NCBI GenBank assembly: GCA_000091205.1
Contig: AP006489.2
Reading direction: 5' to 3' (one strand)
Source: Cyanidioschyzon merolae
Lineage: Eukaryota
Length of the DNA stretch: 64,000 nt
The notes below the pieces were generated by a model that saw only the letters and a list, made by a program, of their open reading frames with translations, was not told the DNA's origin and did no database searches. Positions 701 through 63,475 of the stretch are shown piece after piece (position 1 is the first letter of the stretch; the number at the start of each line of letters is the position of its first letter). A program made the translations under genes and the position numbers.

Positions 701-765
701 TGCCTGCCTGCCTGCCTTGGCACAGCATTGTTCAGTAGCGTGCAGCGTTCTCGGACGACCCTGAG

Positions 766-12722: not shown

Positions 12723-12867
12723 CGGTCCCCGTCTCTATACTTTGACTCGCCTTGCCTGAGAGCACTTTGGGCGGAATCGGAGGTGCAGCCTCTCCAAGCG
12801 ATATGCGCCAGACATCGTACTCGAGGCCGTCGTTGCCGCCGCCAGCGCCACCGCCAGCGTCTTCATA

Positions 12868-29789: not shown

Positions 29790-31078
29790 TTAAAAGACTC
29801 GCTTCGGTTGTGGAAAGATGGATCCGCACACAAGTTCGCGCACGAAACCGCTGCCGCTCACTACCGTTACCGGCTGACTCAAGCGACACCACAGCGCGTA
29901 CGCTCGTGCAAAGCGCGCCGGCGATTCGAGCGAGCGTTACGCGCAGTCATCGAAGCGCAGCTGGCGCTGCCGGTGTCTGTCGATGATGATCACGGAGGTG
30001 CGCGCGCACCAGCGAGATCGTCGAATGCACGCCACGTTGCATCGTGTGTGTGCGCGCGCGATCTGAAGCAGCAGGCGTGCAACAGTGCCTTGAGTGTGCG
30101 TGTACGTGTGCGTGTGCGCCTGCTGCTGGCACGGTATGCTGGAACGGATGCGTTGGCGAGCGTGCCTTTGTTGTGGTACGCGTTCGCTGGAGCGAGTGCC
30201 CGCTATTCGGGAAGCACTGTGATGCTCGTGGCGGTATTTCCATGAGGTAGGTGTCGGGAGCGGATACGAGTCTAGCCGTACGATCAACTTGCAGAGCGTT
30301 GGGTACTGTCCAGTGCATCCTGGGAGCGGTACTGGGTGATGCGGAATCGAGGCCACCACCGATACGCGAGCGCCAGTATCTCGTTGGGCGGCACGCGGGC
30401 GTTGGTCGGTGTCAGCGCGCGGTTCATAGGGTGCAACTGGGCAGACGGGCGGGTGCGGCGGCGGTCCCTATGCGTTCGTATGTAGGCTATCGTTTGACTC
30501 CAGGTGGCTCTGTTTCGGACGGCGTTTGTCGGGGACTTCAGCGCACCTGCTCGTAATTTTCGCTGAAGATCGTCATGGGAACGACTTCGAGTGGGTACGT
30601 TCCGCTCGCAGAGAATGGGGGTTTTCTGAAACCCGACTGAGCACCTCACACTGCAACTGCGATTCTTGAGTTCCTGTTGATCTGGATGGTTTCCAGTTGG
30701 AAATCAATACGGGGGACTCTTGTTGCCAAATTGACAGTGGCGGCTGATAGACAAGACCTGCAGAGTGGATTCTACCGGGCCTTCGATTCCCGTTCGGGAT
30801 TCCGCGCTGCATGCGAATACCCGGAGGCGACGACGTGACCGCCGCCTGGTATGAGCCTGGTGTGACCCAGGCCATAAAGTCATCTGTTTGTGATGCCCAT
30901 GCAGCATGCGATTCAAGGCGCTGTCATGGCGCCCGCTGCCTACTACCGTCCCGAGTCGGATACGCACCAATCTGAGATCACTGGAGTGCAGTGGCTGCCT
31001 CCGCGATATTCACGCGTGTGCTTTACGAACCATCCTTTTCGGATGTGCGAGCGCACGATCGGCTGCACTGGAAAGCGA

Positions 31079-31328
31079 TATTGTGTAACCACCGCAAGGA
31101 AGCCGCCCTTGTTAAACGCAATGCGATGCTGAATACGACTGTCGATTTCGCGATCAAGCCAATATTGTGTAACCACCGCTAGGAAGCCGACCCTGTTAAA
31201 AGCGATACCACACAGAATATGACTGTCGATTTCGCGATCAGGCCAATATTGTGTAACCACCGCAAGGAAGCCGACCCTGTTAAAAGCGATACCACACAGA
31301 ATACGACTGTCGATTTCGCGATCATGCC
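31079..31328. repeat. Tandem repeat, 84-bp unit x 3 (atattgtgtaaccaccgcaaggaagccgaccctgttaaaagcgataccacacagaatacgactgtcgatttcgcgatca…)
   Basis: Unit starts at 31079, 31163 and 31247. Track ORF 30943..31449(-) shows the repeated peptide DREIDS(R/H)ILCGIAFNRVGFLAVVTQYW. Confidence 0.85.
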
Positions 31329-32492
31329 ATTCGTAGTGCCATGCTCGGACTCTAGTGTGTAGCACTGTACTGCGCAAGGATCGGGGTGATCTCTTCCATA
31401 TATCTACACATGACATCGTATGAAGCTGGTGCTTGTTCCGACGCACCACATCTACATGGATATATAAACAAGGACGGCGTCATGTTTTCCGAGGTCGAGT
31501 GCGCTCGGTGAAAGAGGAGAGCATGTTCCCTTCAGGTTCCACACTGATTGACATCTGTGTCTCCCACATGCATACGCCAGTATTTGAAAATCTAGAGAGC
31601 GCACCAGTATCGTGCCAGGATGGTGTGTGCCTCTGAAACGGCGAAAGCCGCGCAGTGCCATGCAGCTGGCAGTACCATCTGGACACTGCGGACACAGGTG
31701 GCCGCGCACCGTCTTTTCCCGAGAGCGCATCCCATGATGCGCCACGGACGCGGGAAATCGCAGGTCGTGTCACGGAAACAGCAGATTCCGTGACGCCGGC
31801 GATGAACAGCGCATGCGCGCATCACGTATCTAGGCCGCAGCGCGCGACGTGGTGCGCGGCAGATGTGTATGTATGTGTCATTATTTCCCTGAAGCAGGAC
31901 GCTGCACCCGCGATGCGCTTCTAACGACGCATCTGATTTTATTGAGACGATGCGGTAAACACGATATCGGTTAGCACTCGTGTGCCTGCACCGGACCTCT
32001 TGGACGGTGAGAATCTCGGGAACTGGTTATCCCGAAGAAATCGAAGCCAGCCGCGTCGACGAAGCGTTGCCGGAGGAGCTCGGGCGACATAGTCGTATTC
32101 GTCCTGTCACCGAAAATCACACGTATAACAGCTTGATAATCTAGAGCACGACACTGATTGGGTGTGTCGATGTGGCGTAAACGGTTGCTCAGCTCAGGCA
32201 CGTCGGGCCGATACTGCCGACCAAGACACCTGAGCGATCTGGTGTCCCGCGCAAGCTGGTGCCGGACGCACGCAACATTCGGAGAGAGTCGGCAGTTCCC
32301 TTTCGGTGCTGAGTTTGCGTCTGCGACCACTCGATTAGTATACGAAACGCACACCTGCCGTTTACAACCATTGTAGAGCTTGCCGTTCCGGACTTGTGCC
32401 CGAACCTTCATGTTTCCTGATGGCGCACTATCTATGCTGTAGTTCGCCTGCATTCAAAGAATTCAGCTTTCCATGGAGCCTCCTTTGCGTTT

Positions 32493-33068
32493 TCAGTATG
32501 CGCAAATGCTCCCTGTGTTCTGAATGTACACGATGATGCCAATCTCGTCCGTGCTCTCGCCGTTGATAGACCAGCGGTTGCCAACTATACGCCATGCAAT
32601 AGTTCCCACGAAGCAGTCTGCATTTATCTCCGCCACTGCTGCATCATCGACTTGGTAGAGATATCCATCGGAGTTGGCCTGAAACGGTTCATCGGTAACA
32701 GTAACATCATTGATAATGCAGCATTCACCGAAGCATAACGTGTTTCCCTCGAAGTAATCACCGTTAACCATGCGAACCGTGATGTACGACGGGCAAGATT
32801 CGCTGTTGACACTGTAGTCATTTTCGAGGTCACTGGTGTACCACTGAGCTTCATAGAGACCGTCCTCGCAACTGGAATAGAAATACGAGCCACTATCGCA
32901 CAGGTTACTTGGGCTGCAGGAGGAACAGTCCGTTTGAATACTGTTCTCTATCGTGCCGGTATCTGTATAGCACTCATAATAACAAGTCTGCCCCGAAACG
33001 GGTTCCTGCATAAAAGACAAGACAAACACGAGCGTCAAAAACACGAAAAGAGCACGCTTGCAAGACAT
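32493..33068 (-). CDS. Small secreted cysteine-rich protein, paralog A (signal peptide + ~165-aa mature region with ~12 Cys)
   Basis: MSCKRALFVFLTLVFVLSFMQEPVSG|QTC… is a classic n/h/c signal peptide. The mature part is Cys-rich and ends …GSICAY. It is the only convincing gene inside the duplicated unit. Confidence 0.6.
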   Translation of the reverse strand: MSCKRALFVFLTLVFVLSFMQEPVSGQTCYYECYTDTGTIENSIQTDCSSCSPSNLCDSGSYFYSSCEDGLYEAQWYTSDLENDYSVNSESCPSYITVRMVNGDYFEGNTLCFGECCIINDVTVTDEPFQANSDGYLYQVDDAAVAEINADCFVGTIAWRIVGNRWSINGESTDEIGIIVYIQNTGSICAY

Positions 33069-33132
33069 AAGGTTGGCGCTTTCGAGCAGAGTCTATAGCT
33101 TTTACTTCAACAACAAGCGACGCAGTTACGTA

Positions 33133-33217
33133 CTATGTGACTGTCACGCTGCGCGACACGCACACCGAGATGCAGCCGTGTCACGCTGCGCGACACGCAC
33201 ACCGAGATGCAGCCGCG
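33133..33217. repeat. 42-bp x 2 tandem motif (tgtcacgctgcgcgacacgcacaccgagatgcagccg) in the 5' flank of secreted-protein gene A; the same feature occurs at 40612..40696 upstream of gene B
   Basis: Direct duplication visible in the sequence; conserved between both segmental copies. Confidence 0.8.
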
Positions 33218-35688
33218 TCACGCCACCTGTGCATGGTGCACACGGATGCGCTCACAACGCCCCCAACGGATAGGAGATCTCCCAACGACGTGCGTTGTAT
33301 GAGAGCCGCCGCCGCCGCCGCCGAGCTTCACACGAGCGCATGACGTATCTGCGCGTCGTGTTCGCGCTTTGCGTATCTGGGCGCTGTCGTTGCGCTCGCG
33401 AGCGGCGGCGTCGTTTACTGGCGGGCAGCGCTGGTGTATTCGCGGTACGCGGTGCTGTATGTTGTACGCGAGCGCTGAGGAATCGGAAAGGTGGTATAAG
33501 TGTACCGAGTGGTCTGGGTGGCCATTGGGCACGCTCAGGGCGTCGTTGTTGACAGCAGGGATCCTGTTTCGCTGCTCGGTAGAGCTAAGAACGACTCAAA
33601 CAGAAGGAGTTCGCATAGCGACCGAGGGCGGAAACGGCAAACTTTGAACCTATTCTAGCTGCTATCGATAGCAGGCTTTGCGGACTTTCTCGGAGACTGT
33701 TTCCTTTTCCGCTCTTTTTTTTCTGCAAGTTTGACTGGGCTTGTTTCTCGTGTCTATCTTGCACTGTTGCTGTGAGCTGTTGAAGGATGTACACAACAGC
33801 GGTATAGCTCCGACCTCGCTGCCTCTGGTTGCTTTTCACGCTTCTCATATGCAGTATTTCGTTGCAACCTACGCTCCTGTTGCCTTTTTCATGAACTTTG
33901 GTGGCAGGAACGATGCGCCTTTTGCAGCGGTGTCACCTGGCAATGCTCGGATGTTGCAGCAGGTCTGGTGCACCTGCTGCAGCGCGGGCTCGCCCTGCAG
34001 CCCACGAAGGCTTGTCGCACCGCTCGGTACATGCCCGTGCGGGCCAGGGAAGGGTCGCGCGATGGTCTCCCCAGTTTCCACACCGGGTGCCGTATCCTAC
34101 GTTCACGGGCTACTGCATGGCGACTGTATTGGCAAGTAGGCCGTCGGCCGGAGAATCAAGCGGAGGCTGTTCCATTCTGTCGAAGATTTGCGGGACGAAA
34201 CTTCGTCTATGGTGAAACCAGCACCGGGAAGGAACCCCAGGCTGAAGCACAAATCGAGATATTTCGATCCGTATGCGCTCGCCTGGGGCAGTTCGGTGGA
34301 GCGTTTCCACAGGGAGCTGTGGTAGCCACGAGACGAACTCGTATCCAAGATCTTTTTTTTACGCGCAAACAGAAGAGACCCGAGTCTCCGGGAGCATATC
34401 CGTGCGAAATATGATGATGCTACTGTTGCGTGCCGTTTTGCAAACCGCCACAGAGAGACGCACACCTTTCGAACAGATAGAATTACTAGCCGTGACAGGT
34501 TCAATGAACTTTTATGTTTGAGCTTGTGGAGAAATCGAGAAAGGACGGCGCCCAGTTTATCCATGGTCATTGCAACAGAAGGCATTGTTGCGCCTTCGCA
34601 ATACCTTGGCCCAGGGAGTTTGGAAACATGAACCATGCGTGATATGCGCACGCTGCTTCGGAGGAAAGGAGACAAGCCGAGGCTCCTGCGTATCCACTGG
34701 ACCATGAAATAGAGTCTTTTGAAAGGCCTCGTATAAGAGCATCCCGAATCATGAAGAATCCGATGGTGTACCAAATTCTAGCGGCAAGGCGTTGAATAAA
34801 CCACTTCGAACATTCGACCCAGAATCCTAAAACTACGAATACGTCGGAACGTTCGTACTGGCGCACTTTGAGTCTCAAGTCTGCGGGTCAAAAAACAGTC
34901 CGAGAACCTCGAAGACCAGGAACAAAAGCGCGCAGTTATGTGGTTCTTTTCAGTCTGCCATGAGTCGAGGGCGAGCGACTGAGCGCGAACGCTCAAGGCA
35001 GTACCGCCCCAAAGTCGTATTCTTCCTCGCTATACGCGGAATCTCTGGGGCGTAGTGAGCCGAAAAAATACAGAAAAAACAAAACAAACTAGTTGCAAAA
35101 TATTGATTAAAGAACACCTATCTTATGGACCTACACACCACGGCCGCCTAAGAGGTTCCAATTTTCCTGGAGAAGCTCTGAAAGTGGGTTAACACGGGGT
35201 GCTTGGACGACGGCGATAGAAGACCACGACAGGAACCTTGACCGCAACGAACGGAGAGGCGGAGGCAGTAGCATCACAAAGTATTGACGAAAATGCTGAG
35301 CAGACATTCGCACCTCCCGAAACAACGCTGCAGGTGCGGGCACATATTCTGGATCCATCCTCGAACTCGGACTCAGGATTACCTCCTACCATGGGTACCT
35401 ACCTCGACTTTGGAAACAGTCTCGGCGGATACTTTGGAAGACGGCTGGCGGCATGTTCACGGTCGAAACTGGAGTAAGCGACTTGCCCGCGTATGTGTTT
35501 GGGGAGCGGATACGTAGCTGCTGAAAGGGTGTTTTGCAGACTGTTCCCAATGGTTGCGGGTAGCTTCACGCGTCCGGCAAGATAAAGTTTGCATTCGAAT
35601 CGACCAAGACTAATGTACTTCTGTTGCTAACTTCGCGCTGTGCCAAGCACTCAATGGACGACTGGAATGCAGGAAGCGCTGGTGGCGT

Positions 35689-38600: not shown

Positions 38601-39298
38601 AGGACAGCAGCAGCTGGGCATCACCGTGATAGACGAAGGTCGGACACTCACTCTGAGTGTAGCACTGGCAATTGATGGTCCGCTAACCGAGCCTCAGCGC
38701 TCATTAGTGGCCAAAAAACTCACATGCTACCTTGTAGGTAAAAGGTCCAGCGAATCGGATGCGCATACGGGCGCAGTGCGCTTTCTGCGCCTACCTTCTG
38801 TGGTGGGTGTCAAGCACAAACCCGCATTGCCAACCAAGAACGCATTCCGTGCATGATCACGAGGAAGAGAGGCGGCTCCCAGAATTCATCCTAACAGCCA
38901 AGTTTCTCCAGCGTGTCGTGTAGCGAAGGCAGGCCTGCATCCGCAGACTGCCCGAGCGCAAACTGACGACGAGACCCGATTCTACGTCGGGTGAACCACG
39001 CCTCGAGCCGACGCCCTCTGAGGTATAGGAAAGCTGTTCTAGCTCTATGAACTATCTGCTCCAGCGGTTCAGGTGCCAAGGCGGATACGGAACGGCAGGC
39101 ACTCGGAACACACGATAGGACATATGAGGCGACAAGAATATCCGAGATGAAACATGGGTAATGTAATTTGAGAGTATGGTGTTGATGGACACCTCTCCTC
39201 GCACTGAAAAAAAAACACACAAAACAAGTAAGAAAAGAAAAATGCGCATAATCGGGGAACGCTGGCCTAAGAAAACGTTTTATCAATGAAAAAAAAAT
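35689..39298 (+). mobile_element. Non-LTR (LINE-like) retrotransposon, degenerate. It has a basic/coiled ORF1-like region (35689..36714), an RT-bearing ORF2 split by at least 2 frameshifts (36569..37486 / 37476..37805 / 37654..38856), and a 3' UTR ending in an A-rich tail (~39195..39298)
   Basis: RT motifs FIDFQKASDTVPHEALFLKMERAGV, MRRGLRQGDPAFPLLFNIFINDL and LLFADDVVLLVPAPE (FADD). The C-terminal motif CPCCGNETPETLTHLGL is the C..CG..ET.E..H zinc-knuckle-like block common to LINE ORF2 tails. The A-runs gaaaaaaaaacacacaaaacaag…caatgaaaaaaaaa end exactly where duplicate copy B begins. I recognise no APE endonuclease domain. The 5' boundary is uncertain and may lie 35.05-35.7 kb. Confidence 0.8.
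36569..38856 (+). pseudogene. LINE ORF2 (reverse transcriptase + C-terminal Cys/His motif) disrupted by frameshifts
   Basis: The RT domain continues across three different reading frames in the ORF track (305-aa, 109-aa and 400-aa pieces) with overlapping ends. Confidence 0.75.
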
Positions 39299-42200
39299 GC
39301 GCATCACGTATCTAGGCCGCAGCGCGCGATGTGGTGCGCGGCAGATGTGTATGTATGTGTCATTATTTCCCTGAAGCAGGACGCTGCACCCGCGATGCGC
39401 TTCTAACGACGCATCTGATTTTATTGAGACGATGCGGTAAACACGATATCGGTTAGCACTCGTGTGCCTGCACCGGACCTCTTGGACGGTGAGAATCTCG
39501 GGAACTGGTTATCCCGAAGAAATCGAAGCCAGCCGCGTCGACGAAGCGTTGCCGGATGAGCTCGGGCGACATAGTCGTATTCGTCCTGTCACCGAAAATC
39601 ACACGTATAACAGCTTGATAATCTAGAGCACGACACTGATTGGGTGTGTCGATGTGGCGTAAACGGTTGCTCAGCTCAGGCACGTCGGGCCGAGACTGCC
39701 GACCAAGACACCTGAGCGGTCTGGTGTCCCGCGCAAGCTGGTGCCGGACGCACGCAACATTCGGAGAGAGTCGGCAGTTCCCTTTCGGTGCTGAGTTTGC
39801 GTCAGCGACCACTCGATTAGTATACGAAACGCACACCTGCCGTTTACAACCATTGTAGAGCTTGCCGTTCCGGACTTGTGCCCGAACCTTCATGTTTCCT
39901 GATGGCGCACTATCTATGCTGTAGTTCGCCTGCATTCAAAGAACTCAGCTTTCCATGGAGCCTCCCTTGCGTTTTCAGTATGCGCAAATGCTTCCCGTGT
40001 GCGGAATGTACACGATGACGCCAAATGCGTCCGTGCTCTCGCCGTTGATAGACCAGTTTCTGGCATTTGCAGCCCATGCAATAGTTCCCACGAAGCAGTC
40101 TGCATTTATCTTCGCCACACCTGCATAATCGACTTTGTACAGATGCCCATCGGATTTGGCCCGATACGGTTCATACTTAACAGCAACATCATTGGCACTG
40201 CAGCATTCGTCGAAGCATATCGTGTTGGCCTCGAGGTAATGATAGTTAACCAAGCGAAACGTAATGTAGGACGGGCAAGGAACGCTCTTGACACTGTAGT
40301 CTACATCCAGAAAACTGGTGTACCACTGAGCGTCAAAAGTGCCGTCCTTGCAATTGGAAAAGAAGCTCAAGTCTCTGCAGAGGTGACTTGGACTGCAGGA
40401 GGAACAGTCCGTATGAATAGTTTTCTCAATCGTGCGGTTTTCTGTATAGCACAGATAGGAACAAGTCTGCCCCGAAACGGGTTCCTGCATAAAAGACAAG
40501 ACAAACACGAGCGTCAAAAACACGAAAAGAGCACGCTTGCAAGACATAAGGTTGGCGCTTTCGAGCAGAGCCTATAGCTTTTACTTCAACAACAAGCGAC
40601 GCAGTTACGTACTATGTGACTGTCACGCTGCGCGACACGCACACCGAGATGCAGCCGTGTCACGCTGCGCGACACGCACACCGAGATGCAGCCGTGTCAC
40701 GCCACCTGTGCATGGTGCACACGGATGCGCTCACAACGCCCCCAACGGATAGGAGATCTCCCAACGACGTGCGTTGTATGAGAGCCGCCGCCGCCGCCGA
40801 GCTTCACACGAGCGCATGACGTATCTGCGCGTCGTGTTCGCGCTTTGCGTATCTGGGCGCTGTCGTTGCGCTCGCGAGCGGCGGCGTCGTTTACTGGCGG
40901 GCAGCGTTGCTGTATTCGCGGTACGCGGTGCTGTATGTTGTACGCGAGCGCTGAGGAATCGGAAAGGTGGTATAAGTGTACCGAGTGGTCTGGGTGGCCA
41001 TTGGGCACGCTCAGGGCGTCGTTGTTGACAGCAGGGATCCTGTTTCGCTGCTCGGTAGAGCCAAGAACGACTCAAACAGAAGGAGTTCGCATAGCGACCG
41101 AGGGCGGAAACGGCAAACTTTGAACCTGTTCTCGCTGCTATCGATAGCAGGCTTTGCGGACTTTCTCGGAGACTGTTTCCTTTTCCGCTCTTTTTTTCTG
41201 CAAGTTTGACTGGGCTTGTTTCTCGTGTCTATCTTGCACTGTTGCTGTGAGCTGTTGAAGGATGTACTCAACAGCGGTATAGCTCCGACCTCGCTGCCTC
41301 TGGTTGCTTTTCACGCTTCTCATATGCAGTATTTCGTTGCAACCTACGCTCCTGTTGCCTTTTTCATGAACTTTGGTGGCAGGAACGATGCGCCTTTTGC
41401 AGCGGTGTCACCTGGCAATGCTCGGATGTTGCAGCAGGTCTGGTGCACCTGCTGCAGCGCGGGCTCGCCCTGCAGCCCACGAAGGCTTGTCGCACCGCTC
41501 GGTACATGCCCGTGCGGGCCAGGGAAGGGTCGCGCGATGGTCTCCCCAGTTTCCACACCGGGTGCCGTATCCTACGTTCACGGGCTACTGCATGGCGACT
41601 GTATTGGCAAGTAGGCCGTCGGCCGGAGAATCAAGCGGAGGCTGTTCCATTCTGTCGAAGATTTGCGGGACGAAACTTCGTCTATGGTGAAACCAGCACC
41701 GGGAAGGAACCCCAGGCTGAAGCACAAATCGAGATATTTCGATCCGTATGCGCTCGCCTGGGGCAGTTCGGTGGAGCGTTTCCACAGGGAGCTGTGGTAG
41801 CCACGAGACGAACTCGTATCCAAGATCTTTTTTTTACGCGCAAACAGAAGAGACCCGAGTCTCCGGGAGCATATCCGTGCGAAATATGATGATGCTACTG
41901 TTGCGTGCCGTTTTGCAAACCGCCACAGAGAGACGCACACCTTTCGAACAGATAGAATTACTAGCCGTGACAGGTTCAATGAACTTTTATGTTTGAGCTT
42001 GTGGAGAAATCGAGAAAGGACGGCGCCCAGTTTATCCATGGTCATTGCAACAGAAGGCATTGTTGCGCCTTCGCAATACCTTGGCCCAGGGAGTTTGGAA
42101 ACATGAACCATGCGTGATATGCGCACGCTGCTTCGGAGGAAAGGAGACAAGCCGAGGCTCCTGCGTATCCACTGGACCATGAAATAGAGTCTTTTGAAAG

Positions 42201-42525
42201 GCCTCGTATAAGAGCATCCCGAATCATGAAGAATCCGATGGTGTACCAAATTCTAGCGGCAAGGCGTTGAATAAACCACTTCGAACATTCGACCCAGAAT
42301 CCTAAAACTACGAATACGTCGGAACGTTCGTACTGGCGGACTTTTAGTCTCAAGTCTGCAGGTCAAAAAACAGTCCGAGAACCTCGAAGACCAGGAACAA
42401 AAGCGCGCAGTTATGTGGTTCTTTTCAGTCTGCCATGAGTCGAGGGCGAGCGACTGAGCGCGCGCGCTCATAGCAGTACCCCCCAGCACCATATCCTTCC
42501 TTGCTATACGCGGCATCTTTGGGGC
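39299..42525. repeat. Copy B of the ~3.2-kb direct segmental duplication
   Basis: See copy A. It begins at gcgcatcacgtatctaggccgcag immediately after the LINE A-tail. Similarity to copy A fades at ~42525. Confidence 0.9.
39975..40547 (-). CDS. Small secreted cysteine-rich protein, paralog B. The signal peptide is identical to paralog A, while the mature region has diverged (~60% aa identity) on a conserved Cys scaffold
   Basis: MSCKRALFVFLTLVFVLSFMQEPVSGQTCSYLCYTEN…GSICAY. Cys positions are conserved relative to paralog A and intervening residues are largely replaced. Confidence 0.6.
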   Translation of the reverse strand: MSCKRALFVFLTLVFVLSFMQEPVSGQTCSYLCYTENRTIEKTIHTDCSSCSPSHLCRDLSFFSNCKDGTFDAQWYTSFLDVDYSVKSVPCPSYITFRLVNYHYLEANTICFDECCSANDVAVKYEPYRAKSDGHLYKVDYAGVAKINADCFVGTIAWAANARNWSINGESTDAFGVIVYIPHTGSICAY

Positions 42526-43870
42526 GTGTCTGCGCAAACAATCATGTAGACGAGCGCCCCGCCAGGACACTCGTTCAGGGCGCTGCCTCTACCACCGTGC
42601 ACATCCTGTGCGAGTCCGACAAACGCACGCCGTCTCACTACGGAGCAAACCTAACCACCCACACACTCATTCGCTCTGGTATCCACGCACCGATTGTCGA
42701 TAGCATGGTCATCGAGCGCCCCGCGAACATGCGTCAGGACGCCCGGACATCCTTGCACGGAGCCGGTAACCTTCTTGCCAGACTCGCGTCTCACCAGTGC
42801 TCGGAATCGCTCCAGAGAAACACCAGAGGCAACATAACCGTAATGTGTGCCAGATTATGCGATGAAGCTGCTGTCGATACCAGTATTCTGGCAGCGGTGA
42901 TTCTTGCGCTGATTTCATACGACGGACGTGCTCCCATTGCCACGTTCGCCGTGTCATGATGTTATCAGTTACCGAGCAGGTAGTTGCGCACTCATTCAAC
43001 TCAGCTAGCGTCCCGATGCCCTGCAAAACACGAGTCACGTTGCTTATCGTCTGTCGATCGAGCAAGTTGGAGACACGAGTGAGGCTCGTCCTATGCGCAT
43101 GGATGCGGTATTCGAAGCAAGCTGCACCTTTTGATGTTTTACGCGATGCATCATGGTGTGCTTTGTTCTCACGGCGACACAGGAATCAAGTTGACCAACA
43201 GGCGTTGCCATCGCAAGGCTCAGCAAGACGCAAACATATGGTCGCTCTCGCAAGTACAGCTCGCGTGCGGGTTGCTGTCTTCGTCTAGCGATACTTGTGC
43301 CGGGTAAGCGGGAGTGTGCCAGTCGTGCATGTGCAACGACAGCAAAGAAAGCGTTGAAGATCAGCGCGACACGTTGGCTGTTGATACCAACGCTCTCGCG
43401 TGCCCGTTGTTCGACGTGCACCGCCTAAGCAAGGCGTACCTTGGGCACACACACGTAGCTCGACACCGCGCACATTGAAGGACCAGTTTGTCGCCAGCTC
43501 GAGCCCAGTACCTAGAACGCGCTTCTTGTGCAACGTATCACAGAGCTAGTTCTCCGGCAGCGCAACGTGCTAGTAGCCAGTCACGTGCAAAATTCCCAGC
43601 TACAAAACTGGCTCCGCGCGTTGACGACAAGCTCCAAGCGCCCAGGCAGAGTCGCTTTGGCTCCCAGCTTGGCGCCCGTTGCTCCAGCACCGCACTTGAC
43701 CGAACAAGGTCTTCACGCGCTACGCTCACTTCTGTGTACCGGTCACGATTGCCGCGCGTACTTGGTGACTCCAGGTACAGCGTTTCTCGTGCAACGCCCA
43801 CAACTTGCGGCAAGTGAAGCTTCGTTATGAGACAGTCGCGAACGACAACCGTCAAATGATGCACCAATAA

Positions 43871-50436: not shown

Positions 50437-53400
50437 CCACCACTCTGTCTATGTGTATATGCCCGCTAGAGCCTGCAATGAAGAGCCAGGTTTAAGTTCC
50501 TCAGGTATCCCACGGCTTATCTGAGAACCATTCTGCATGCAGCGTACTTCTGAGTCCTCAGCTGCGTCACCAGCTGTGTAGCGCAGCACTTGGTGGATGC
50601 TCGTGCTGACGGCAGACGCAGGCCCCCCTGCGGACACCCGGGGATTCGTTGCGATCGACTCATCGGGGACATACCCCGAGCGGGTGGATGGGCGCTCTCC
50701 AGCTGGGTAGTTATCCACCCTGAGGTGCGTTTCATGAAATGCTTTTACGTGGCCTATAGCAGATGCTTGTGAAGTGGGTTCGTTGGAAGAAATAAAAATG
50801 TATGGGAAAGGTATGGATGTGGAAGCTGGCGGACTAGAGAGTCGTCATCGCTGGCTACCGACAAACTCAAAGCGAACAATCCTCTTCTCATTGAGCATCG
50901 AGCGAGGAGGAGCGAGTGACGAATAAAAGCAGAAGAGGGGAAATAGTCGAGATATCGTGTTTAACCGATGGGAGTATGATGAGACTTTAGGGGTAGAGCG
51001 GGCACGAGTTCCAGTTATTCATGCATCGGTGCTAGCGAAAATACACACATGGAGTTCTTGAATCGATACTTGAACGCCGCCTTCAATATCATACGATGTG
51101 CGGCGCTGAAGACGAGAACCGAGGAGCTGACGCGAGCCAATTTTGTGGGGAAGCCTCTCAGGCTCGAAGCGTGCAGGGAAAATCTGAAACAGACAGCAGT
51201 GGGCAAGTCAAAAATTGCTTGGAGCGTGTCTTTGAGTCCATACATATAAATGTACATACGTAGGTATCCTCCATGGTAGCAAAGCTCTTTCTATTCCACT
51301 GATCACGTACATACAGAGGGCGGGGAGTCGAAGGTTCTGCATGTTGCCTCCTTGAGACGCTGCCGATTCGACATACTTGGTGCTTCGTTGGGATGCGTCC
51401 ATTTTAGGTAAAGATTTTTTTTTTGATCTGTAGCAGAGCGGCAAACGAGTCTTTTCAGATACTGCGAGATGCACGAGTGCAGCTGCGAATGAGACCAGAC
51501 GCCGTAAGTTTTGCAAGCGTGTTCAATGCTGAATACTGCCATGCAACATCGATGAATCGCCCAGCACGTGGCGACGCTGGATCGAGTCCCTACATAGCAT
51601 AGAGTAGCTAGTCTGGATAAAGGAGCTTGGGATGGTGCGCGAATGCGTTCCCGTCGTTGACCTTGCAGCCTGTAGCGCCCGCATACATGGCGCGAGCCCA
51701 GAATATTTATCAAGTCAAATGCGCCGTGGTTCGTTGGTCTTTCGTCGTCAGTTCGAGGTGCCCTGGATGCCCTTTGGAGAACGAATTTTCTGAAGTTCGC
51801 TTCTTCCTGGCTGTCTGGCTGGGTGCACCAGGGCCATTGTGCGACAGGTTCGTGGCAAACAACACGTCAACAGATGCGTGCGTCTTGTAGGGATGGTGCC
51901 GTCGCATCCAGGCCTCCCGCCGGGGCGCTGAGCAAACTTCACGCGACTCCAGCACGGCTTCGCCATCCAGCCGGCTCCGTCAATCACGTGGCGGACGCTG
52001 GGCTCCAGCACAGCGAAGCTGGATCACGTCCCGTACGTTTCGGGAGTCGCCAGCAGCCCCCGATCATTGAACTGGGAAACATTCACAAATAAAATACCTC
52101 CTTGTCGTTGATGCCAAGACGCGCTGGATTTCCCCAGGCTACCTGATGGCCTTCTCAACTGTGCTCGGTATCTGGTATCGAGCGCCCACAAACATGGGCA
52201 GTCGCACCAGCGACTCAACTCCACATCCAGTCACGCGAAGCCTGTCACTGCGAGATCCCCGATCAACGCCCTGTATAGCCAGCCCCGGGCACCGTGCCCC
52301 GACTTGCACCAGCGCGTCCATCTGTTGTCCATAGTGAGTCCAGCGAGCGATCAACCACGCAAATCGGCGACTCGAGAACGGACACGTAGCAGCGATCGCA
52401 CCGTGCGACTCCAGGTGCTGCGTACGCATGCCCGCCGCCACAGCACGGATGACGGCGAGTTTTTTTTCATGGACAAAACGTTTACCTAGCCAGCGTTCTC
52501 CGATTATGCACATTTCTCTTTCCTTTTGGTTTTTTTTCAGTGCACGGTGAGGTATCCATCAAGCCCCTACTCCCATGTTACATGACCTGCACTTCATCTC
52601 GAATATTCTGGTCGTATCATAAGTCCTATCGTGTGTGCCTAGTGCCTGCCGAAAGCGACAGCAATGGCGCCTGTAGCGCCGGGGCGGTCGCAGCACGGAG
52701 ACAGAACGGCGTTGCCGTACCACAAAGGGCGTCGGCTCGAGGGGATACCGGCGAGTACGCACGCATTTGCGGCCGGTGGTGCGAGTCGTTGCGAGCCGCT
52801 TCCGCCGCCATCGGATACAGCAGCGCAGGCGTCCGTTTTGTTTTCTGATCCTGCAGCATCGATGTATCCGAGAGACTGGGCGTATGCAGCGGAAACGCGC
52901 ATACCACTATCAGCTCGAACAGAGACAGCAATTCGCCTGCACGGATACGCCTTAGATTCCACCAGGTCCAGTCTACTGTCTCCCGCGAACGCACCCAGTG
53001 AATACTGCGAGCCTCTAGACTCGGGGCCTGCAGCGGGCGCTCTCGCTGTGGCGCCGTGTGCGCATCGAGCGTGCCATGGCGGCTTCTGTGCGCCGCTGCG
53101 GGCGTTCGCCCTGCAAGGCGGCGCACTGTCCAACTGAATGGCGCGTCGCTGCTCGGCTCGCTGGCTCCTGTGTGGGGCTCTGTTCCGCAACGGCTTTGTA
53201 CTCTGTGGGTGCAGTTGAGACGGCGTACTCTCGGGGAGCGGGTTGCTCACTGGTACGCAGGACCAATTGAGGTGCAAGATAAATCATTTCAAGCTCTCAC
53301 AGTTACTGTTACGCTGATTCTACACAGCATCTGTGACATAATTTGGTACTGTTGGAACTCGGGTGTTGTTTACACTCGACTCGGGTGGCGCATTGTCACC

Positions 53401-59436: not shown

Positions 59437-59640
59437 CTACTTGAGGCGGACGAAAAGCTTCGAGGCTACGCACAAGTCAATGCACCGCCAAAAGTCCAGG
59501 TACTGGCCGGTGCAGTGCGCCTCGCCGGCTGGGTCGTTTTCGATTCGTTTGGTGCAGTCTTCGTACTCTATTAGTTGCCTTATACACTGCGGCCGACATG
59601 ACTCCTCAATCTCGACTTTTGGATCGACCGTCTCTGACAT
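59437..59640 (-). CDS. QCR6: Cytochrome bc1 complex hinge protein (subunit 6 / UQCRH / QCR6)
   Basis: The 67-aa ORF ends …HCTGQYLDFWRCIDLCVASKLFVRLK, matching the hinge-protein C-terminus (…DHCVAHKLFNNLK) with conserved Cys pairs (CRPQC…C…C…C). Confidence 0.7.
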   Translation of the reverse strand: MSETVDPKVEIEESCRPQCIRQLIEYEDCTKRIENDPAGEAHCTGQYLDFWRCIDLCVASKLFVRLK

Positions 59641-59852
59641 TTCCTGCGTGTTCTACGATCAGCGAACGACTTTCGAAAGACAAACGTCGCTGCGGTCGAC
59701 AGTACAGTAGTGGCGAGAAACCCGCCTTGACGAGACGTCTCCAACTGATGTGCAGACGCCTCTGTCTTTTTGGACCGGCCACCTACTACTGCTTCCATTG
59801 TTTTCTCATATAGTTCCACTTTGGCATATTGTCCAACAAAGTTCCCTCGTGT

Positions 59853-60464
59853 CTATTCTGGAGGACTCGTCTCCATCACCGCATATCTTGTTGTATTGAT
59901 AGCGGCATTGTAGTCACGATTCACGAATGCCATATGTTTCTCACCATCATTGGTTGTACATACTAACGCAAGTAGCCCGCGAACTTTTGCCCTCCTTTCC
60001 GTTTGCTCTTCCGTCAGCGGTCTGTACTTTTTTGTATCATCAAGGCTCCGCAGGCACTTTTCCATCTCCACCCTCTGAGGTGTGCATTCCAACTCATGGT
60101 GTGTATACGATGTTCGGAACTCATCCATCGGTATCGTAACGAAATGCCTTGCGCAAGCTTTGTACGTTCTCGTCGTTGATGCTGATGCACACCCTTTTCG
60201 GGTCTTCCAGCGCCATGCTCCGTGTGCTACTACGAGCCCCTGACGTACATCCTCCTTCAGGGCGCACAACTCATTGAAAAAGTTCGCGAACGCACGCCAT
60301 TTCCCCCAGTATAGATTCATACGAAGACGAGCCCACCGGGGCTTTGTATACTCTTTACAGAGCGCATCCAAATAAGCAACGCGAACTTCCATGAATTTCC
60401 GAAAAGATTTAAAGTACGCGCCGCGGCTCGTCGCCTCGCTGATACCTTCCAGGTGATCCTTCAT
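59853..60464 (-). pseudogene. C-terminal part of a TnpB/Fanzor-like (RuvC-III + Zn-finger) nuclease ORF; upstream frames (60714..61142, 61147..61614, same strand) are probably broken N-terminal parts of the same lower-GC element
   Basis: The C-terminus …LVCTTNDGEKHMAFVNRDYNAAINTTRYAV matches the RDxNAAxNI RuvC-III signature of IS605 TnpB/Fanzor/Cas12. Upstream it is preceded by TYKACARHF (YKAE-like), EFRTSYTHHELEC (TS + Cys/His), and a Cys/His cluster (C..C…C…H). In-frame stops occur at 60534, 60588 and 60714. Lower GC than the surroundings. Confidence 0.4.
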
Positions 60465-60713
60465 ACCTACATTCCATGTCTCAATTTTCTTCCTTGCATT
60501 CGTTATCCCAGATTCTCGGCAGCATCTCGATCTTTAGAGCTTTAAAAGACGCATGTCCTTCTGATGTAAGTTGTTGTCGTTACCATCTTACACACGCTTG
60601 GGTACAGCGATGGTTACGATGTTCGTGTTCCCAGCGTCCGCGCAAAACGACAATGTCATTCTCATGCACTTCCTGCATCGCAGGATCCGCCTCCTTCTCA
60701 TCTCCGTGCTTCG

Positions 60714-61614
60714 TCACCGGCGCAGCCGAGGGCGGGACTGGACAATGTTTCTTCGACCCCGATAGTTTACACGCATAGACATGCCATCGGTTTCCATGGT
60801 GCCTGTGAATGCATTATTTCTTGCCCGCATCGAGACGTATGAAATGGAGGGGTAATTTTCATGTTCGTCTCCCGGTTTTCGCAAGTGAACTCTATCTTCC
60901 TTACATCGAACTCCGTACAAAAAATCCCTCATGGTATCTTGAAGAGCTGAGGAGTCCATTGTCACACACTGTAATCTGATGCTCCGTAAGGGAACGACGT
61001 CGAAGCGCTTCCCCATTAGGGCAGCGTTCCGGTTCTCCGACTGTATACTTTCCCACATCCAGCTGCTTTTCGGTCTTGCGTTCGAGTTCTCGTTCCAACA
61101 ACACGAGAAACGGCAGAATGAAGCGATAACATCTTTCTTCATCTTTTTACATATCTGATATTTTGTCTGCTGGGTTGAGCAGCCTCAGAAAAGCACGGTG
61201 CTCTTGAATAGCCGCCGGGATTACAGAAGCTTCATTCCTTCCCCTGCGTAGTATCTTCTTGCCGACAAATTCGATCTCCTCTTCATGCTGGCGACCGTTG
61301 GCGATGCCATTGATGATGGCCCATATACCTTTGCGAGAGACGCTCGGGTACAGCGCAGAGGTGCAGCGTATCATGAAGCGTTCGAGGTTCACAATCACGT
61401 GTTTCTCCAGGTTGGTGAGGTACTTCATGGCCCCAGAGCAGTAAATATCCCCGTCTTCCTTGTATCGATAATTGTTGAACCGGAATTCGGCGTTGGTTTC
61501 GTGGAGGGAATGCACTAGCCCATTTATTGTAGACGTTTCCCCGTGCCAACCATCAGGTGGCGAATAAAGGTCTTGTCGAAGAGTTCTTCCGGAAACTGGT
61601 CTCTTTTGATGCAC
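60714..61614 (-). other. Two further same-strand ORFs (142 aa and 155 aa) of the putative TnpB/Fanzor-like element; no family motif recognised
   Basis: Collinear, same strand, with adjacent ends (61142/61147). The frame shifts between them. GC content is lower than in the flanking genes. Confidence 0.25.
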
Positions 61615-63475
61615 GTAACGTCGTAGTACATCTCCTTGACCATATAAACCAGTGCTAAAGAAGCTTTACGAATACTCCTGGAGTACAAATTGACACAGTT
61701 TCTGATGGCCTCTCACAAATTTTCCTTGTACGGGTTCTTAACATGTTTAAGAAGAGAGGCATTCACGAGCATCTCGTCGTACTGTCGCTTCCTTGCATCG
61801 TTTGACGTAGGGCCTCCTGCCTTTGGTTCTTGGTCCTCTCCCGTTCCTATGAGCTTGGCACTGGTTTTCGATTTTTCTCCCGCAGCCGGCGATACCGGCT
61901 CTCCAGGATCCTCCACTCCCTATTCCACAACTTTCCTTTCTTATTATTTTGAAAATGAACGCATTCTGAATGCTTCTGGCATAAACCGCGAAAAATCAGT
62001 TGGACATACTTACTTGGGGATTGGTACACGGTTGAACTGAAATCTATTCTTTGCTACGACTTTAGTAAATATATTTTACGTTAGCGCAACACGCGAATAC
62101 AAAGGATCGCGTCTCGCTTTAGCTGCGAGATGCAAGTCGTGTCTCATGCCTGCCAGCTATGAAGGTGCGCTTATCGACCGCGCAACAGAAAAAAAAGAAC
62201 AGAAACTAAACACTAACTAGTAACGAAAGATAAATTTCGTTCGAACTTCATGCTAAGCGATAAAAGAAGAAAAGGTTTCCGTATTTTAGAAAGCTTGCCT
62301 TCTAGGAGGAAGGCCACGCGAGCCGCACATGTGTGCGGGGCACGTGCTCTATGCTTCCCAAGTGACAGGTGCTTTAGTGCGATCTGGGCAACTCATCCAC
62401 AACGCAGTTTATTCTTCCGGTAGGAGAGGGTATGCTGCAGGTGAGCGTCGCACTGGTCGAAGATGACTCCCAGTATAAAGCGCCGCGCTGTTACAGGCAG
62501 TAGGTCAGCGTGTCCAGCTTGGAGGCTCCCAGAAGTATAAATAGCCCTGGTTCCGTGTCAAGGGAACCAAGCCTCTTCCGACGCGCTCAGTGGTATGCCG
62601 AAGCTGTTCTGTTTCCGTAGCGCATCCGCATCAGCGATAGAGATGCTACGGCGGGTGCTCATGGCAAGCAAACGGAGCACGATAGAAAGTATGAATCAAC
62701 CAGTACAGCCGAGAGTAAATAAAAACGTTGGAACGTACAGAAATTTTTCACCATGATGGACGCATTCCCGACAGCCAATATCTATCAAGCAATCTGGGAT
62801 ATATGTTGAGTGGAAACGTTCCGTCGAACCAAAGAAAGCATAGCACGTGAGGGAATTCCCTAATGTCTCTGGTATTCGAAGCATCGCCTTGGCAGATGCA
62901 TGTGCGCTCAAATTATCCCGCAGGAGTAAATTCCCTTATACCTCCGCTGCGCTATTCGTCGGCAGGCAGCGATCGTCGTGATCTCGGAGGAAGACTTTGC
63001 GGAGCTCTTAGCGCGAAGTATTTGCGAGGTTACTGGTCCGAAAACTGGGAGCTTTAACTGGTTTCTGAAAAGGATACAGAGCGCTTGTGCTAGTTCCACT
63101 CAACGCTTGGAAGTCTACACGAGACTGAGGTCAGAATCTGTGTAATTGACGGACGATCACTCGTGCAGCTACACCAAAGAGGTTTTTGACTGGATACGCA
63201 CGCTTACGCGAACGTTCCTAGTTGGTGGCGCGATTGGCAGCTTTGCACCGGAGAAAATCTAATCCAAGAAAATGCAAGCTCTTTTCGTTTCTGTTCCGCT
63301 GTACCAGGAAAGACATATTGTTTGCGCGCGCGCTGCAACTCGAGCACCGTTCCCGCTGCGTACGCCTCGTAACGGGTGCTTCGCAGCTGGACATCGTCAC
63401 CACTGCCAGCATCCGCTTCCTTTGGTGGTGCAGCGTTTGCCTGTAGCGCGCCGGCACCACGCGCTGCATCTTCGT

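What the first reader, a model, noticed from the sequence alone, without database searches (positions are those of the whole stretch)
59853..61614. Lower-GC block with a broken ORF series ending in a TnpB/Fanzor-type RuvC-III motif (RDYNAAIN)
ORF 59853-60464(-) ends with AFVNRDYNAAINTTRY. Upstream in the same ORF are YKA and TS-containing segments and a Cys/His cluster, in the order seen in TnpB/Fanzor/Cas12 C-terminal halves (YKAE … TSq … Zn finger … RDxNAAxNI). Two more same-strand ORFs lie directly upstream (60714-61142, 61147-61614). In-frame stops at 60534, 60588 and 60714 and a frame change interrupt the series, suggesting a decayed or intron-containing element. Eukaryotic RNA-guided OMEGA nucleases (Fanzors) are sporadic. 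A copy, even decayed, in this lineage, next to the QCR6 gene, would be worth documenting. Intact copies elsewhere in the genome with a conserved non-coding omega-RNA-like region at the 3' end would be the real prize.
Basis: partly seen in the sequence, partly recalled or inferred. Interest (0 to 1): 0.7.

Follow-up and report, generated by a model that had tools for sequence, protein, structure and literature searches.

The report
Dead Fanzor1 transposon copy (CMe-1A)

Summary
ORF 59853-60464(-) ends in ...AFVNRDYNAAINTTRY, two same-strand ORFs lie upstream, and the block is lower in GC. The Fanzor interpretation also holds. A profile of full-length homologs hits only Fanzor1 chains in the PDB, and an AlphaFold model's seven best fold matches are all Fanzor1 (E 4e-15 to 8e-13).

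It is not new. Five window proteins are exact matches to Cyanidioschyzon merolae 10D proteins. The published 3169-bp CMe-1A consensus (Bao & Jurka 2013: about 150 copies, about 80% identical to consensus) aligns end to end with window 62820-59667 at 80.6% identity.

The real element is about 3.17 kb (about 59657-62829, minus strand), larger than the reported interval. This copy is a pseudogene, not an intron-containing gene. It has 13 frameshifting indels, 7 in-frame stops, a lost start codon and a broken RuvC-I motif.

Small additions at family level:
- Codon-position conservation indicates past purifying selection.
- Insertions sit just 3' of a T-rich tract.
- The 3' end carries a hairpin, rich in G-U pairs, that folds well only on the sense strand. 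This fits an omega-RNA terminal stem but is unproven.

Interest is low.

The parts
59657..62829 (-). Full-length, decayed copy of the CMe-1A transposable element (Fanzor1 family of C. merolae)
   Evidence: Published CMe-1A consensus nt 10-3169 aligns to window 62820-59667 at 80.6% identity over 3171 columns. The 5' terminus was fixed at 62829 by comparing 21 independent 5' junctions. The 3' terminus was put at about 59657, the end of the terminal hairpin.
62190..62829 (-). 5' module equivalent to the separate short element TE-N2_CMe (about 635 bp)
   Evidence: It corresponds to consensus nt 1 to about 640. Bao & Jurka state that the 5' 635 bp of CMe-1A is the TE-N2_CMe element. The module is absent from some Fanzor-core copies (L069, L081, L024) and present in others. 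Related fragments occur alone elsewhere in the window.
62830..62838 (-). T-rich target tract immediately 5' of the element (reads CTTTCTTTG on the minus strand)
   Evidence: One search gives the sequence. Across 21 distinct 5' junctions, positions -8 to -2 are 52-86% T against a background of 22%, and position -1 is C or T in 86%.
61929..62189 (-). Non-coding leader between the TE-N2-like module and the Fanzor1 start codon
   Evidence: It aligns to consensus nt about 641-905. No conserved ORF was found in the 5' non-coding part (about 62100-63000, which overlaps this leader) across copies.
59727..61928 (-). Fanzor1 pseudogene (remnant of the 734-codon CMe-1 ORF)
   Evidence: Codon-level comparison with the consensus shows 13 frameshifting indels. 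They fall at codons 18, 47, 87, 88, 129, 296, 336, 360, 372, 391, 428, 722 and 735. There are 7 in-frame stops, whose first bases are at 61922, 61849, 61715, 61149, 60590, 60536 and 59855. Changed codons split 232 nonsynonymous to 77 synonymous. The start ATG is GTG at 61928-61926. A family HMM hits pieces across 59856-61712 at E 2e-93 to 4e-16.
60622..60651 (-). Broken RuvC-I motif (consensus VVGADPGNTN)
   Evidence: A 1-nt insertion at about 60648 shifts the frame. In the shifted frame the motif reads CADAGNTN, with the Asp codon GAC kept at 60638-60636 and Pro changed to Ala.
60108..60125 (-). DEFRTS motif, the Fanzor1-type glutamate followed by the TS motif
   Evidence: Translation. It aligns with lDEYKTS of the Spizellomyces Fanzor in the profile-PDB alignment. 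It is conserved in all full-length homologs except P0165, which has SEFRTS.
59895..59921 (-). RuvC-III motif NRDYNAAIN
   Evidence: Translation. It aligns with WNRDM of the Spizellomyces Fanzor. NRD(F/L/M)NAA(I/M)NI is conserved across distant homologs.
59657..59852 (-). Conserved 3' region: tail of the consensus ORF plus the non-coding right end. Candidate omega-RNA scaffold region.
   Evidence: The window ORF stops at 59853-59855, 43 codons before the consensus stop. The region is conserved among 54 copies, with a mean of 69% over all 315 alignment columns, including the RuvC-III coding end and 3' flanks, and many columns at or above 90%. Identity to the consensus is 0.87-0.88 for nt 3001-3100.
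59657..59702 (-). Terminal hairpin of the element, decayed in this copy
   Evidence: The window copy folds at -15.7 kcal/mol with z -0.3. The well-kept copy L019 forms a 19-bp hairpin at -28.7 kcal/mol, z -6.2, against -16.9 on the antisense strand. Across 45 distinct copies the mean is -17.0 sense against -11.1 antisense. The sense strand is more stable in 41 of 45, with about 3 G-U pairs per hairpin.
59437..59640 (-). QCR6 (cytochrome bc1 hinge protein) gene. A neighbour, not part of the element.
   Evidence: Pfam UCR_hinge at E 2.5e-18. Exact match to BAM79707.1 / XP_005535993.1 of C. merolae 10D. Its ATG lies only about 16 nt downstream of the element's 3' end.

Best explanation
Window 59657-62829 (minus strand) is one of the roughly 150 copies of CMe-1A in the genome of Cyanidioschyzon merolae 10D. 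CMe-1A is a transposable element of about 3.2 kb with no terminal inverted repeats or target-site duplications. Its only gene is a single-exon Fanzor1, the eukaryotic TnpB-like RuvC nuclease.

Shown here: this copy is full length but dead. It has diverged about 19% from the family consensus. It has lost its start codon and carries 13 frameshifts and 7 in-frame stops. Its RuvC-I motif is disrupted. The 203-aa ORF with the intact DEFRTS and NRDYNAAIN motifs is simply the longest surviving piece. The insertion is old and fixed: it is present in all ten metagenome places that carry the identical QCR6 protein.

Inferred, by analogy with characterised Fanzor1 and TnpB systems: intact master copies encode an RNA-guided DNA endonuclease. 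Its guide RNA would be transcribed from the conserved 3' end of the element, finishing in the strong sense-strand hairpin at the right end, so that the guide is read from the adjoining flank. The T-rich tract always found 5' of the element would then be the target-adjacent motif as well as the insertion site. Which enzyme actually mobilises the element is unknown.
For: Host: five window ORFs are exact matches to C. merolae 10D proteins (BAM79695, 79699, 79705, 79706, 79707) on a 584-kb record.

Identity with the published element: the CMe-1A consensus from Bao & Jurka's supplement aligns end to end at 80.6%. This matches their description of about 150 copies, about 80% identical to a consensus of about 3 kb, with a 635-bp 5' part equal to TE-N2_CMe.

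Fanzor1 identity of the protein family:
- The profile of 14 homologs hits only SpuFz (8gkh, E 1.6e-4) and GtFz1 (9cer, E 0.011) among 177,635 PDB sequences.
- The AlphaFold2 model (pLDDT 68, pTM 0.60) has Fanzor1 chains as its top 7 Foldseek hits (E 3.8e-15 to 7.6e-13, TM up to 0.57/0.69). Cas12 proteins follow only at E>2e-3.
- The motifs G-x-DPG, DE(F/Y)RT(S/T) and NRDxNAAxNI are conserved in homologs down to 31% identity.

Decay of this copy: indels, stops, 232 nonsynonymous to 77 synonymous changed codons; RuvC-I.

The family was functional. Identity to the consensus by codon position is 0.877, 0.902 and 0.810. At least one intact ORF of 722-752 aa exists (L069 / P0121).

T-rich target. 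Sense-specific terminal hairpin. Fixation.
Against: Nothing argues against the identification.

The mechanistic part is weaker:
- RNAalifold on 54 copies found no consensus structure beyond a 3-bp stem and no compensatory pairs.
- Rfam found nothing.
- The 3' region is not more conserved than the coding region.
- The zinc-finger segment of this clade is non-canonical (H-H-C...C, with the second Cys pair lost).
- No RNA or cleavage data are available.
Confidence: 0.97

Rival explanations
1. The ORF series is a functional Fanzor gene interrupted by introns. The stops and the frame change would be removed by splicing.
For: Fanzor1 genes in some hosts do have introns. Chlamydomonas CRe-1/2/3 have 5-10 exons according to Bao & Jurka.
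Against: The family ORF is a single exon of 734 codons, and an intact uninterrupted copy exists (L069). The window copy differs from it by 13 scattered 1-2 nt indels and 7 point-mutation stops, not by inserted blocks. The start codon is lost. RuvC-I is hit by a 1-nt insertion. Changed codons are about 3:1 nonsynonymous to synonymous, as expected for neutral decay.
Confidence: 0.01
2. The NAAIN ending is a chance motif in an unrelated or spurious ORF.
For: Pfam gives only a sub-threshold hit (PF07282, E 0.12), and NCBIfam gives nothing.
Against: There are hundreds of homologous copies. Profile and fold matches go exclusively to Fanzor1. The element aligns end to end with a published Fanzor1 element.
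Confidence: 0.005
3. At family level, CMe-1A and TE-N2_CMe are non-autonomous Helitron2-type (rolling-circle) elements. They would be mobilised in trans by a RepHel transposase, as shown for the Fanzor1-carrying CRe-1/2/3 elements of Chlamydomonas. Fanzor1 would be cargo or a helper. This concerns how the element moves and is compatible with the best explanation for the window copy.
For: Insertion lies immediately 3' of a T-rich tract, as for Helitron2, which inserts after TTTT. No target-site duplication or terminal inverted repeat is visible. There is a strong hairpin at the 3' end. A 10-nt inverted match (ACGTTTTGTC) links nt 5-14 of the 5' end to a subterminal 3' site and is kept at 8-9 of 10 positions in most copies. 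The 5' boundaries of the Fanzor core are variable, which recalls one-ended transposition.
Against: The inverted match sits 4 nt from the 5' end and about 62-72 nt from the 3' end, not directly upstream of the hairpin. Helitron2 asymmetric terminal inverted repeats lie 0-2 nt and 20-30 nt from the ends. The hairpin's stability depends on G-U pairs and is strand-specific. That points to an RNA role rather than a DNA hairpin recognised by an HUH enzyme. Bao & Jurka defined Helitron2 in the same paper and still left CMe-1A unclassified. No RepHel gene was seen in the window, and the genome could not be searched.
Confidence: 0.2
4. The block is a bacterial IS200/IS605- or IS607-type TnpB insertion, either a recent horizontal transfer or a contaminant.
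For: TnpB and Fanzor share the RuvC motifs, and the weak Pfam hit is to the Cas12f1-like/TnpB TNB domain.
Against: The window is an exact C. merolae nuclear chromosome segment. The best structural and profile matches are eukaryotic Fanzor1, with Cas12f far weaker. The protein is about 730 aa with a basic N-terminal segment (KKRK), like the other Fanzor1-length homologs of 600-700 aa. No TnpA-like ORF is present.
Confidence: 0.005

Closest known systems
CMe-1A / CMe-1 Fanzor1 element of Cyanidioschyzon merolae (Bao & Jurka 2013, Mob DNA 4:12, PMC3627910; Repbase-style consensus of 3169 bp)
   Same: Same genome. End-to-end alignment at 80.6%, which is the divergence reported for the family. Same architecture: a 635-bp TE-N2_CMe-like 5' module, a single-exon 734-aa Fanzor1 ORF, and no terminal inverted repeat or target-site duplication.
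   Different: Nothing categorical. This is an individual, mutationally inactivated copy. Points not stated in the 2013 description but seen here are the T-rich 5' target tract, the sense-strand-specific terminal hairpin, and 3' terminal sequence that is conserved about 10 nt beyond the published consensus end.
Structurally characterised Fanzor1 nucleases: Spizellomyces punctatus SpuFz (8GKH, 9CEU-9CEZ), Guillardia theta GtFz (9CER), Parasitella parasitica PpFz (9CF0/1)
   Same: Overall fold (Foldseek E 4e-15 to 8e-13, TM 0.5-0.69). The D-P-containing RuvC-I strand, the DE(Y/F)xTS glutamate and the NRD RuvC-III motif.
   Different: Only 12-15% sequence identity. The CMe-1 clade has a degenerate zinc-finger segment, and some copies carry a variable tandem repeat of about 25 aa just before RuvC-I. 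Omega RNA, target-adjacent motif and activity are untested for CMe-1.
[quoted passage not shown]
   Same: A high-copy element with Fanzor1 as its only gene, insertion after T-rich sequence, a 3' hairpin, and variable 5' ends.
   Different: The geometry of the asymmetric terminal inverted repeats does not match. No autonomous Helitron partner is known for C. merolae. The CMe-1 ORF has no introns.
Bacterial TnpB-only IS200/IS605-like elements (e.g. IS1341 type)
   Same: An element with a solo RuvC nuclease gene, no terminal inverted repeat or target-site duplication, a conserved structured 3' end abutting the flank, and a sequence-specific 5' target.
   Different: The protein is about 730 aa with the rearranged Fanzor1-type glutamate, in a eukaryotic nuclear genome. 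Pfam TnpB models are sub-threshold.

Membership tests
CMe-1A element (Bao & Jurka 2013) | Alignment to the published 3169-bp consensus over its full length, at the family's typical identity of about 80% | tested here: met
   Consensus nt 10-3169 aligns to window 62820-59667 at 80.6% identity with 28 gap columns.
CMe-1A element (Bao & Jurka 2013) | Host genome is Cyanidioschyzon merolae | tested here: met
   Five window ORFs are exact matches to C. merolae 10D proteins.
CMe-1A element (Bao & Jurka 2013) | The 5' part of about 635 bp corresponds to the independent short element TE-N2_CMe | tested here: met
   Window 62190-62829 aligns to consensus nt 1 to about 640. The module is present or absent independently of the Fanzor core in other copies, and solo fragments occur in the window. 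The TE-N2_CMe consensus itself was not available for comparison.
CMe-1A element (Bao & Jurka 2013) | No terminal inverted repeats and no recognisable target-site duplication | tested here: met
   The window flanks (...CTTTCTTTG | element | GTAGAACACG...) share no duplication. Only a 10-nt asymmetric inverted match was found.
Fanzor1 (eukaryotic TnpB-like RNA-guided nuclease) | RuvC-I aspartate (x-D-P-G strand) | tested here: met
   Family level: G(A/C/V/N)DPG is conserved in full-length homologs. In the window copy the Asp codon survives, but the motif is frameshifted and Pro has become Ala, so the copy itself cannot encode it in frame.
Fanzor1 (eukaryotic TnpB-like RNA-guided nuclease) | Glutamate in DE(F/Y)xT(S/T), followed by the TS motif | tested here: met
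   DEFRTS at 60108-60125. It aligns to DEYKTS of SpuFz.
Fanzor1 (eukaryotic TnpB-like RNA-guided nuclease) | RuvC-III R-D in NRDxNAAxN | tested here: met
   NRDYNAAIN at 59895-59921. It is conserved in the family.
Fanzor1 (eukaryotic TnpB-like RNA-guided nuclease) | C4 zinc finger between the TS motif and RD (the Bao & Jurka motif) | tested here: inconclusive
   The CMe-1 clade has THHELGC...EKC, and the second pair is replaced (RGLLALVST). More distant homologs keep RGLLWC. Metal binding cannot be judged from sequence.
Fanzor1 (eukaryotic TnpB-like RNA-guided nuclease) | Fold and profile similarity to solved Fanzor1 proteins | tested here: met
   Foldseek top 7 hits are all Fanzor1, E 3.8e-15 to 7.6e-13. 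A family hmmsearch against the PDB hits only SpuFz (1.6e-4) and GtFz1 (0.011).
Fanzor1 (eukaryotic TnpB-like RNA-guided nuclease) | Omega RNA encoded at the 3' end of the ORF and the right end of the element | tested here: inconclusive
   There is a conserved 3' region with a sense-strand-specific terminal hairpin. RNAalifold found no consensus fold or covariation, and Rfam found nothing. No expression data are available.
Fanzor1 (eukaryotic TnpB-like RNA-guided nuclease) | RNA-guided, TAM-dependent DNA cleavage | not testable with these tools
   This needs biochemistry. The window copy cannot be active in any case.
Helitron2-type non-autonomous element | Insertion after TTTT or T-rich sequence, without target-site duplication | tested here: met
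   Positions -8 to -2 are 52-86% T at 21 junctions. Definition taken.
Helitron2-type non-autonomous element | Asymmetric terminal inverted repeats of 8-15 bp: 5' copy 0-2 bp from the end, 3' copy 20-30 bp from the end and directly upstream of the 3' hairpin | tested here: not met
   A 10-nt inverted match exists, but it lies 4 nt from the 5' end and about 62-72 nt from the 3' end, separated from the hairpin by about 20 nt.
Helitron2-type non-autonomous element | A RepHel-encoding autonomous partner in the same genome with matching termini | not testable with these tools
   The C. merolae genome is not in a searchable collection here. None was seen in the 64-kb window.
Bacterial TnpB (IS200/IS605, IS607) | Pfam OrfB_Zn_ribbon / Cas12f1-like_TNB above the gathering threshold, and an associated TnpA | tested here: not met
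   PF07282 scores 13 bits against a cut-off of 26.3 (E 0.12). NCBIfam gives no hit. No TnpA-like ORF is in the element.

The most novel reading that the evidence does not exclude
Intact CMe-1A masters in Cyanidioschyzon populations may still be active Fanzor1/omega-RNA systems. In that reading the guide RNA ends in the G-U-rich 19-bp hairpin at the element's right end. The T-rich tract 5' of every insertion (TTTY) would be both the insertion site and the target-adjacent motif. The family may also shape the genome, since synteny between Cyanidioschyzon lineages repeatedly breaks at element ends. It would be a Fanzor1 from an acid-hot-spring alga, with defined guide and target-motif logic.
Probability: 0.3. 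Interest if true: 0.4.

Novelty: already known. Interest (0 to 1): 0.12.

Why it matters
For this locus it matters little. It is one dead copy of a transposon family catalogued in 2013 in a model genome.

The check does have some value:
- It shows the first-stage reader can spot a Fanzor from motifs alone, even where Pfam and NCBIfam models fail.
- It corrects the element's extent.
- It records family-level features that could guide an experimental test of the C. merolae Fanzor1: the T-rich 5' target, the strand-specific terminal RNA hairpin, a codon-level signature of selection, and an intact 722-752 aa copy in a metagenome.

A Fanzor from an alga of acidic hot springs could interest genome-editing work, but that is an application, not a conceptual advance.

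Tried and rejected
- Direct Pfam and NCBIfam scans of the three ORFs gave only a sub-threshold PF07282 hit. Pfam scans of the full-length and distant homologs gave the same.
- A single-sequence phmmer of the intact homolog against the PDB gave nothing relevant. Only the family profile worked.
- An Rfam scan of 59.0-63.5 kb at E<=1 gave two chance-level hits.
- RNAalifold on 54 aligned 3' ends gave a 3-bp stem and no covariation. The terminal hairpin is misaligned by MAFFT because it comes in at least two sequence variants, so it was analysed copy by copy instead.
- A search for a coding gene in the 5' 650-bp module found no ORF conserved across copies.
- An attempt to define exact junctions from filled and empty sites failed. 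Relatives carry insertions next to sequence orthologous to window 38023, 35065-35085 and 39295, but their other flank is not in the window. All ten metagenome places with the identical QCR6 protein already carry the insertion.
- My first anchor pattern for the hairpin analysis matched only 8 copies, so I redid it with a broader anchor that matched 45.
- Pfam on ORFs of the unrelated 3.2-kb direct repeat gave nothing. One call failed on a frame with stops.
- PF26935.1, listed as a precomputed domain on many homologs, is not in the local Pfam copy and could not be identified.
Full report
**Observation.** ORF 59853-60464 ends ...KHMAFVNRDYNAAINTTRYAVMETSPPE. Upstream it contains TRTYKACARHF, DEFRTS and a His/Cys cluster (HHELEC...EKC). 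GC falls to 0.45-0.50 over 59.5-63.0 kb, against 0.53-0.60 on the left flank and 0.57 beyond 63.2 kb. The downstream gene is QCR6 (Pfam UCR_hinge, E 2.5e-18).

**Standard models fail; the family does not.** Pfam gives only a sub-threshold hit to PF07282, Cas12f1-like TNB (E 0.12, 13 bits against a cut-off of 26.3). NCBIfam gives nothing. The 203-aa ORF nevertheless has 166 homologs at E<=0.01, mostly 65-75% identical. A degenerate-pattern scan found at least 399 confirmed copies in a handful of JGI metagenomes, often several per contig.

Most copies are fragmented. One locus, L069, has an uninterrupted ORF of 722 aa from the first Met. It corresponds to database protein P0121 (752 aa). A second search returned divergent full-length relatives of 620-700 aa at 31-42% identity.

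Their alignment shows three conserved motifs:
- G-x-DPG (RuvC-I);
- a VVAYGAG-type segment without the canonical RuvC-II glutamate, followed by (V/I)DE(F/Y)RT(S/T);
- NRDxNAAxNI (RuvC-III).

**Fanzor1 identity.** A profile of this alignment searched against all PDB sequences hits only two proteins at E<=10. They are the Spizellomyces punctatus Fanzor (8GKH, E 1.6e-4, aligned over about 360 positions including DEYKTS and NRD) and Guillardia theta Fanzor1 (E 0.011).

An AlphaFold2 model of P0121 (pLDDT 68, pTM 0.60) has seven Fanzor1 chains as its best Foldseek matches: SpuFz, PpFz and GtFz, at E 3.8e-15 to 7.6e-13 and TM up to 0.57/0.69. Cas12-type proteins follow only at E>2e-3. An exhaustive HMMER search finds 3734 representative clusters at E<=1e-3 and 493 at E<=1e-30, mostly proteins of 600-700 aa. 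This is a large, established family.

[quoted passage not shown] Their description:
- about 150 copies, each about 80% identical to a 3169-bp consensus;
- a single-exon 734-aa protein;
- no terminal inverted repeats, and target-site duplications undetermined;
- a 5' 635 bp that equals another element, TE-N2_CMe (about 70 copies);
- some copies still intact.

I took the consensus from their supplement. Its nt 10-3169 align with window 62820-59667 at 80.6% identity. Five window ORFs, including QCR6, are exact matches to C. merolae 10D proteins on a 584-kb record. The window is therefore the genome in which the family was defined, and this is one of its copies.

**State of this copy.** Measured against the consensus ORF, the window copy has:
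- ATG changed to GTG at 61928-61926;
- 13 frameshifting 1-2 nt indels;
- 232 nonsynonymous against 77 synonymous codon changes, about the 3:1 ratio expected from neutral decay;
- a 1-nt insertion inside RuvC-I, where VVGADPGNTN now reads CADAGNTN out of frame.

It is a pseudogene, not a gene with introns. The insertion is old and fixed. All ten metagenome places that encode the identical QCR6 protein carry the same upstream ORF.

**Anatomy and extent.** The element is larger than the reported interval. Comparison of 21 independent 5' junctions places the 5' end at 62829, where the window reads GTTCGACGGAACGTTT... against the consensus CGATGACAAAACGTTT.... The 3' end lies at about 59657, roughly 10 nt beyond the published consensus end, where similarity between independent copies decays to background. 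From 5' to 3' the parts are:
- a TE-N2-like module (62190-62829);
- a leader (61929-62189);
- the Fanzor1 remnant (59727-61928);
- a conserved 3' tail ending in a hairpin (59657-59852).

Some related copies lack the TE-N2 module or have other sequence in its place. This is consistent with CMe-1A being a composite of two parts.

**How the family probably works (inference).** Identity to the consensus by codon position is 0.877, 0.902 and 0.810 across copies. The protein was therefore under purifying selection while the family spread, as Bao & Jurka also argued.

The sequence immediately 5' of the element is strongly T-rich. Positions -8 to -2 are 52-86% T against a background of 22%, and position -1 is C or T.

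The last 40 nt or so of the element form a long hairpin that is much more stable in the sense RNA than in the antisense. The means are -17.0 and -11.1 kcal/mol, the sense strand is better in 41 of 45 distinct copies (Wilcoxon p 4e-8), and there are about 3 G-U pairs per hairpin. The best-kept example forms 19 bp at -28.7 kcal/mol with z -6.2. The window's own hairpin is degraded (z -0.3).

Strand asymmetry through G-U pairs suggests an RNA-level role. In TnpB and Fanzor systems the guide RNA scaffold is encoded at the 3' end of the ORF and the element's right end, with the guide read from the flank. The target-adjacent motif then equals the insertion-site motif at the left end. The T-rich tract and the terminal hairpin fit that scheme.

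This remains an analogy. RNAalifold found no covarying consensus, Rfam has no match, and no expression or cleavage data are available.

**Mobilisation.** The T-rich target, the absence of a target-site duplication, the 3' hairpin and a 10-nt asymmetric inverted match (ACGTTTTGTC) recall Helitron2 elements. Helitron2 elements carry Fanzor1 in Chlamydomonas. The geometry of the inverted match does not fit the Helitron2 definition, however, and no RepHel partner could be sought. I give this reading about 0.2.

**Verdict.** The element is CMe-1A, known since 2013, and this copy is dead. Interest is low.

Noticed in passing
window 59641-59656 and QCR6 at 59437-59640 (-): The element's 3' end lies only about 16 nt upstream of the QCR6 start codon, in the same orientation, and an in-frame TAG sits 5 codons upstream of the ATG. 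The QCR6 promoter and 5' UTR must therefore lie inside the transposon's 3' end, or the gene is transcribed by read-through. The arrangement is fixed in all 10 metagenome places examined.
   Followed up: partly
window 50983-51246 (+): A second Fanzor1 C-terminal relic from a more divergent subfamily. It reads MEFLNRYLNAAFNIIRC..., with the RuvC-III Asp replaced by Tyr. The family HMM scores it at E 7e-11 and tblastn gives 55% identity to CMe-1 residues 666-720. It lies within a repeat of about 490 bp also seen in L044 and L060.
   Followed up: partly
window 9108-10406 (+) and 24087-22789 (-): A 1.3-kb inverted repeat pair at 98.9% identity brackets about 12 kb of genes. Each arm holds a weak Fanzor1-like C-terminal fragment (VPVDAFRTKYRHHVLRC...; HMM E 6.5e-7, 33% to CMe-1 residues 595-671). 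A weak N-terminal-like piece lies at 23767-24153.
   Followed up: partly
window 31817-35053 and 39299-42527 (+): A 3.24-kb direct repeat at 96% identity with no Fanzor similarity and no Pfam hits on its ORFs. Its inner ends (35053 and 39299) lie within about 5-30 nt of the points where related metagenome contigs instead carry CMe-1A copies (35065-35085 and 39295). These sites look like repeated targets of insertion or recombination.
   Followed up: partly
window 52455-52742 (+), 38964-39298 (-), 4452-4544 (-), 16462-16508 (-): Solo fragments related to the TE-N2_CMe-like 5' module of CMe-1A, at 75-81% identity to the consensus. The one at 16508 keeps a recognisable 5' terminus preceded by a T-rich tract.
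   Followed up: partly
L069:3523-3827, L024, L067, L032 (metagenome copies): A 75-bp (25-aa) unit...TKHEEKKEA.PATQ.VQDNDLVVDA..., lies immediately upstream of RuvC-I. It is tandemly expanded to 2-5 copies in some elements, including the intact L069 ORF. The consensus and the window copy have one unit. The region is predicted disordered (pLDDT below 50 at residues 373-472).
   Followed up: no
L037, L043, L045, L069, L011, L078 compared with the window: Related Cyanidioschyzon-like contigs (80-89% identical in flanking genes) share one flank of an element with the window but not the other. Synteny between lineages therefore often breaks at CMe-1A copies.
   Followed up: no
homologs P0121-P0165: Many homologs carry a precomputed Pfam annotation, PF26935.1, that is not in the local Pfam-A copy. 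It may be a recent family covering the Fanzor1 N-terminal or REC region. Its name could not be determined.
   Followed up: no
window 22241-22807, 12866-13326, 31078-31329, 381-698: Several tandem-repeat arrays appear in the window self-comparison, with periods of about 63, 116, 84 and 147 bp. They are unrelated to the finding.
   Followed up: no
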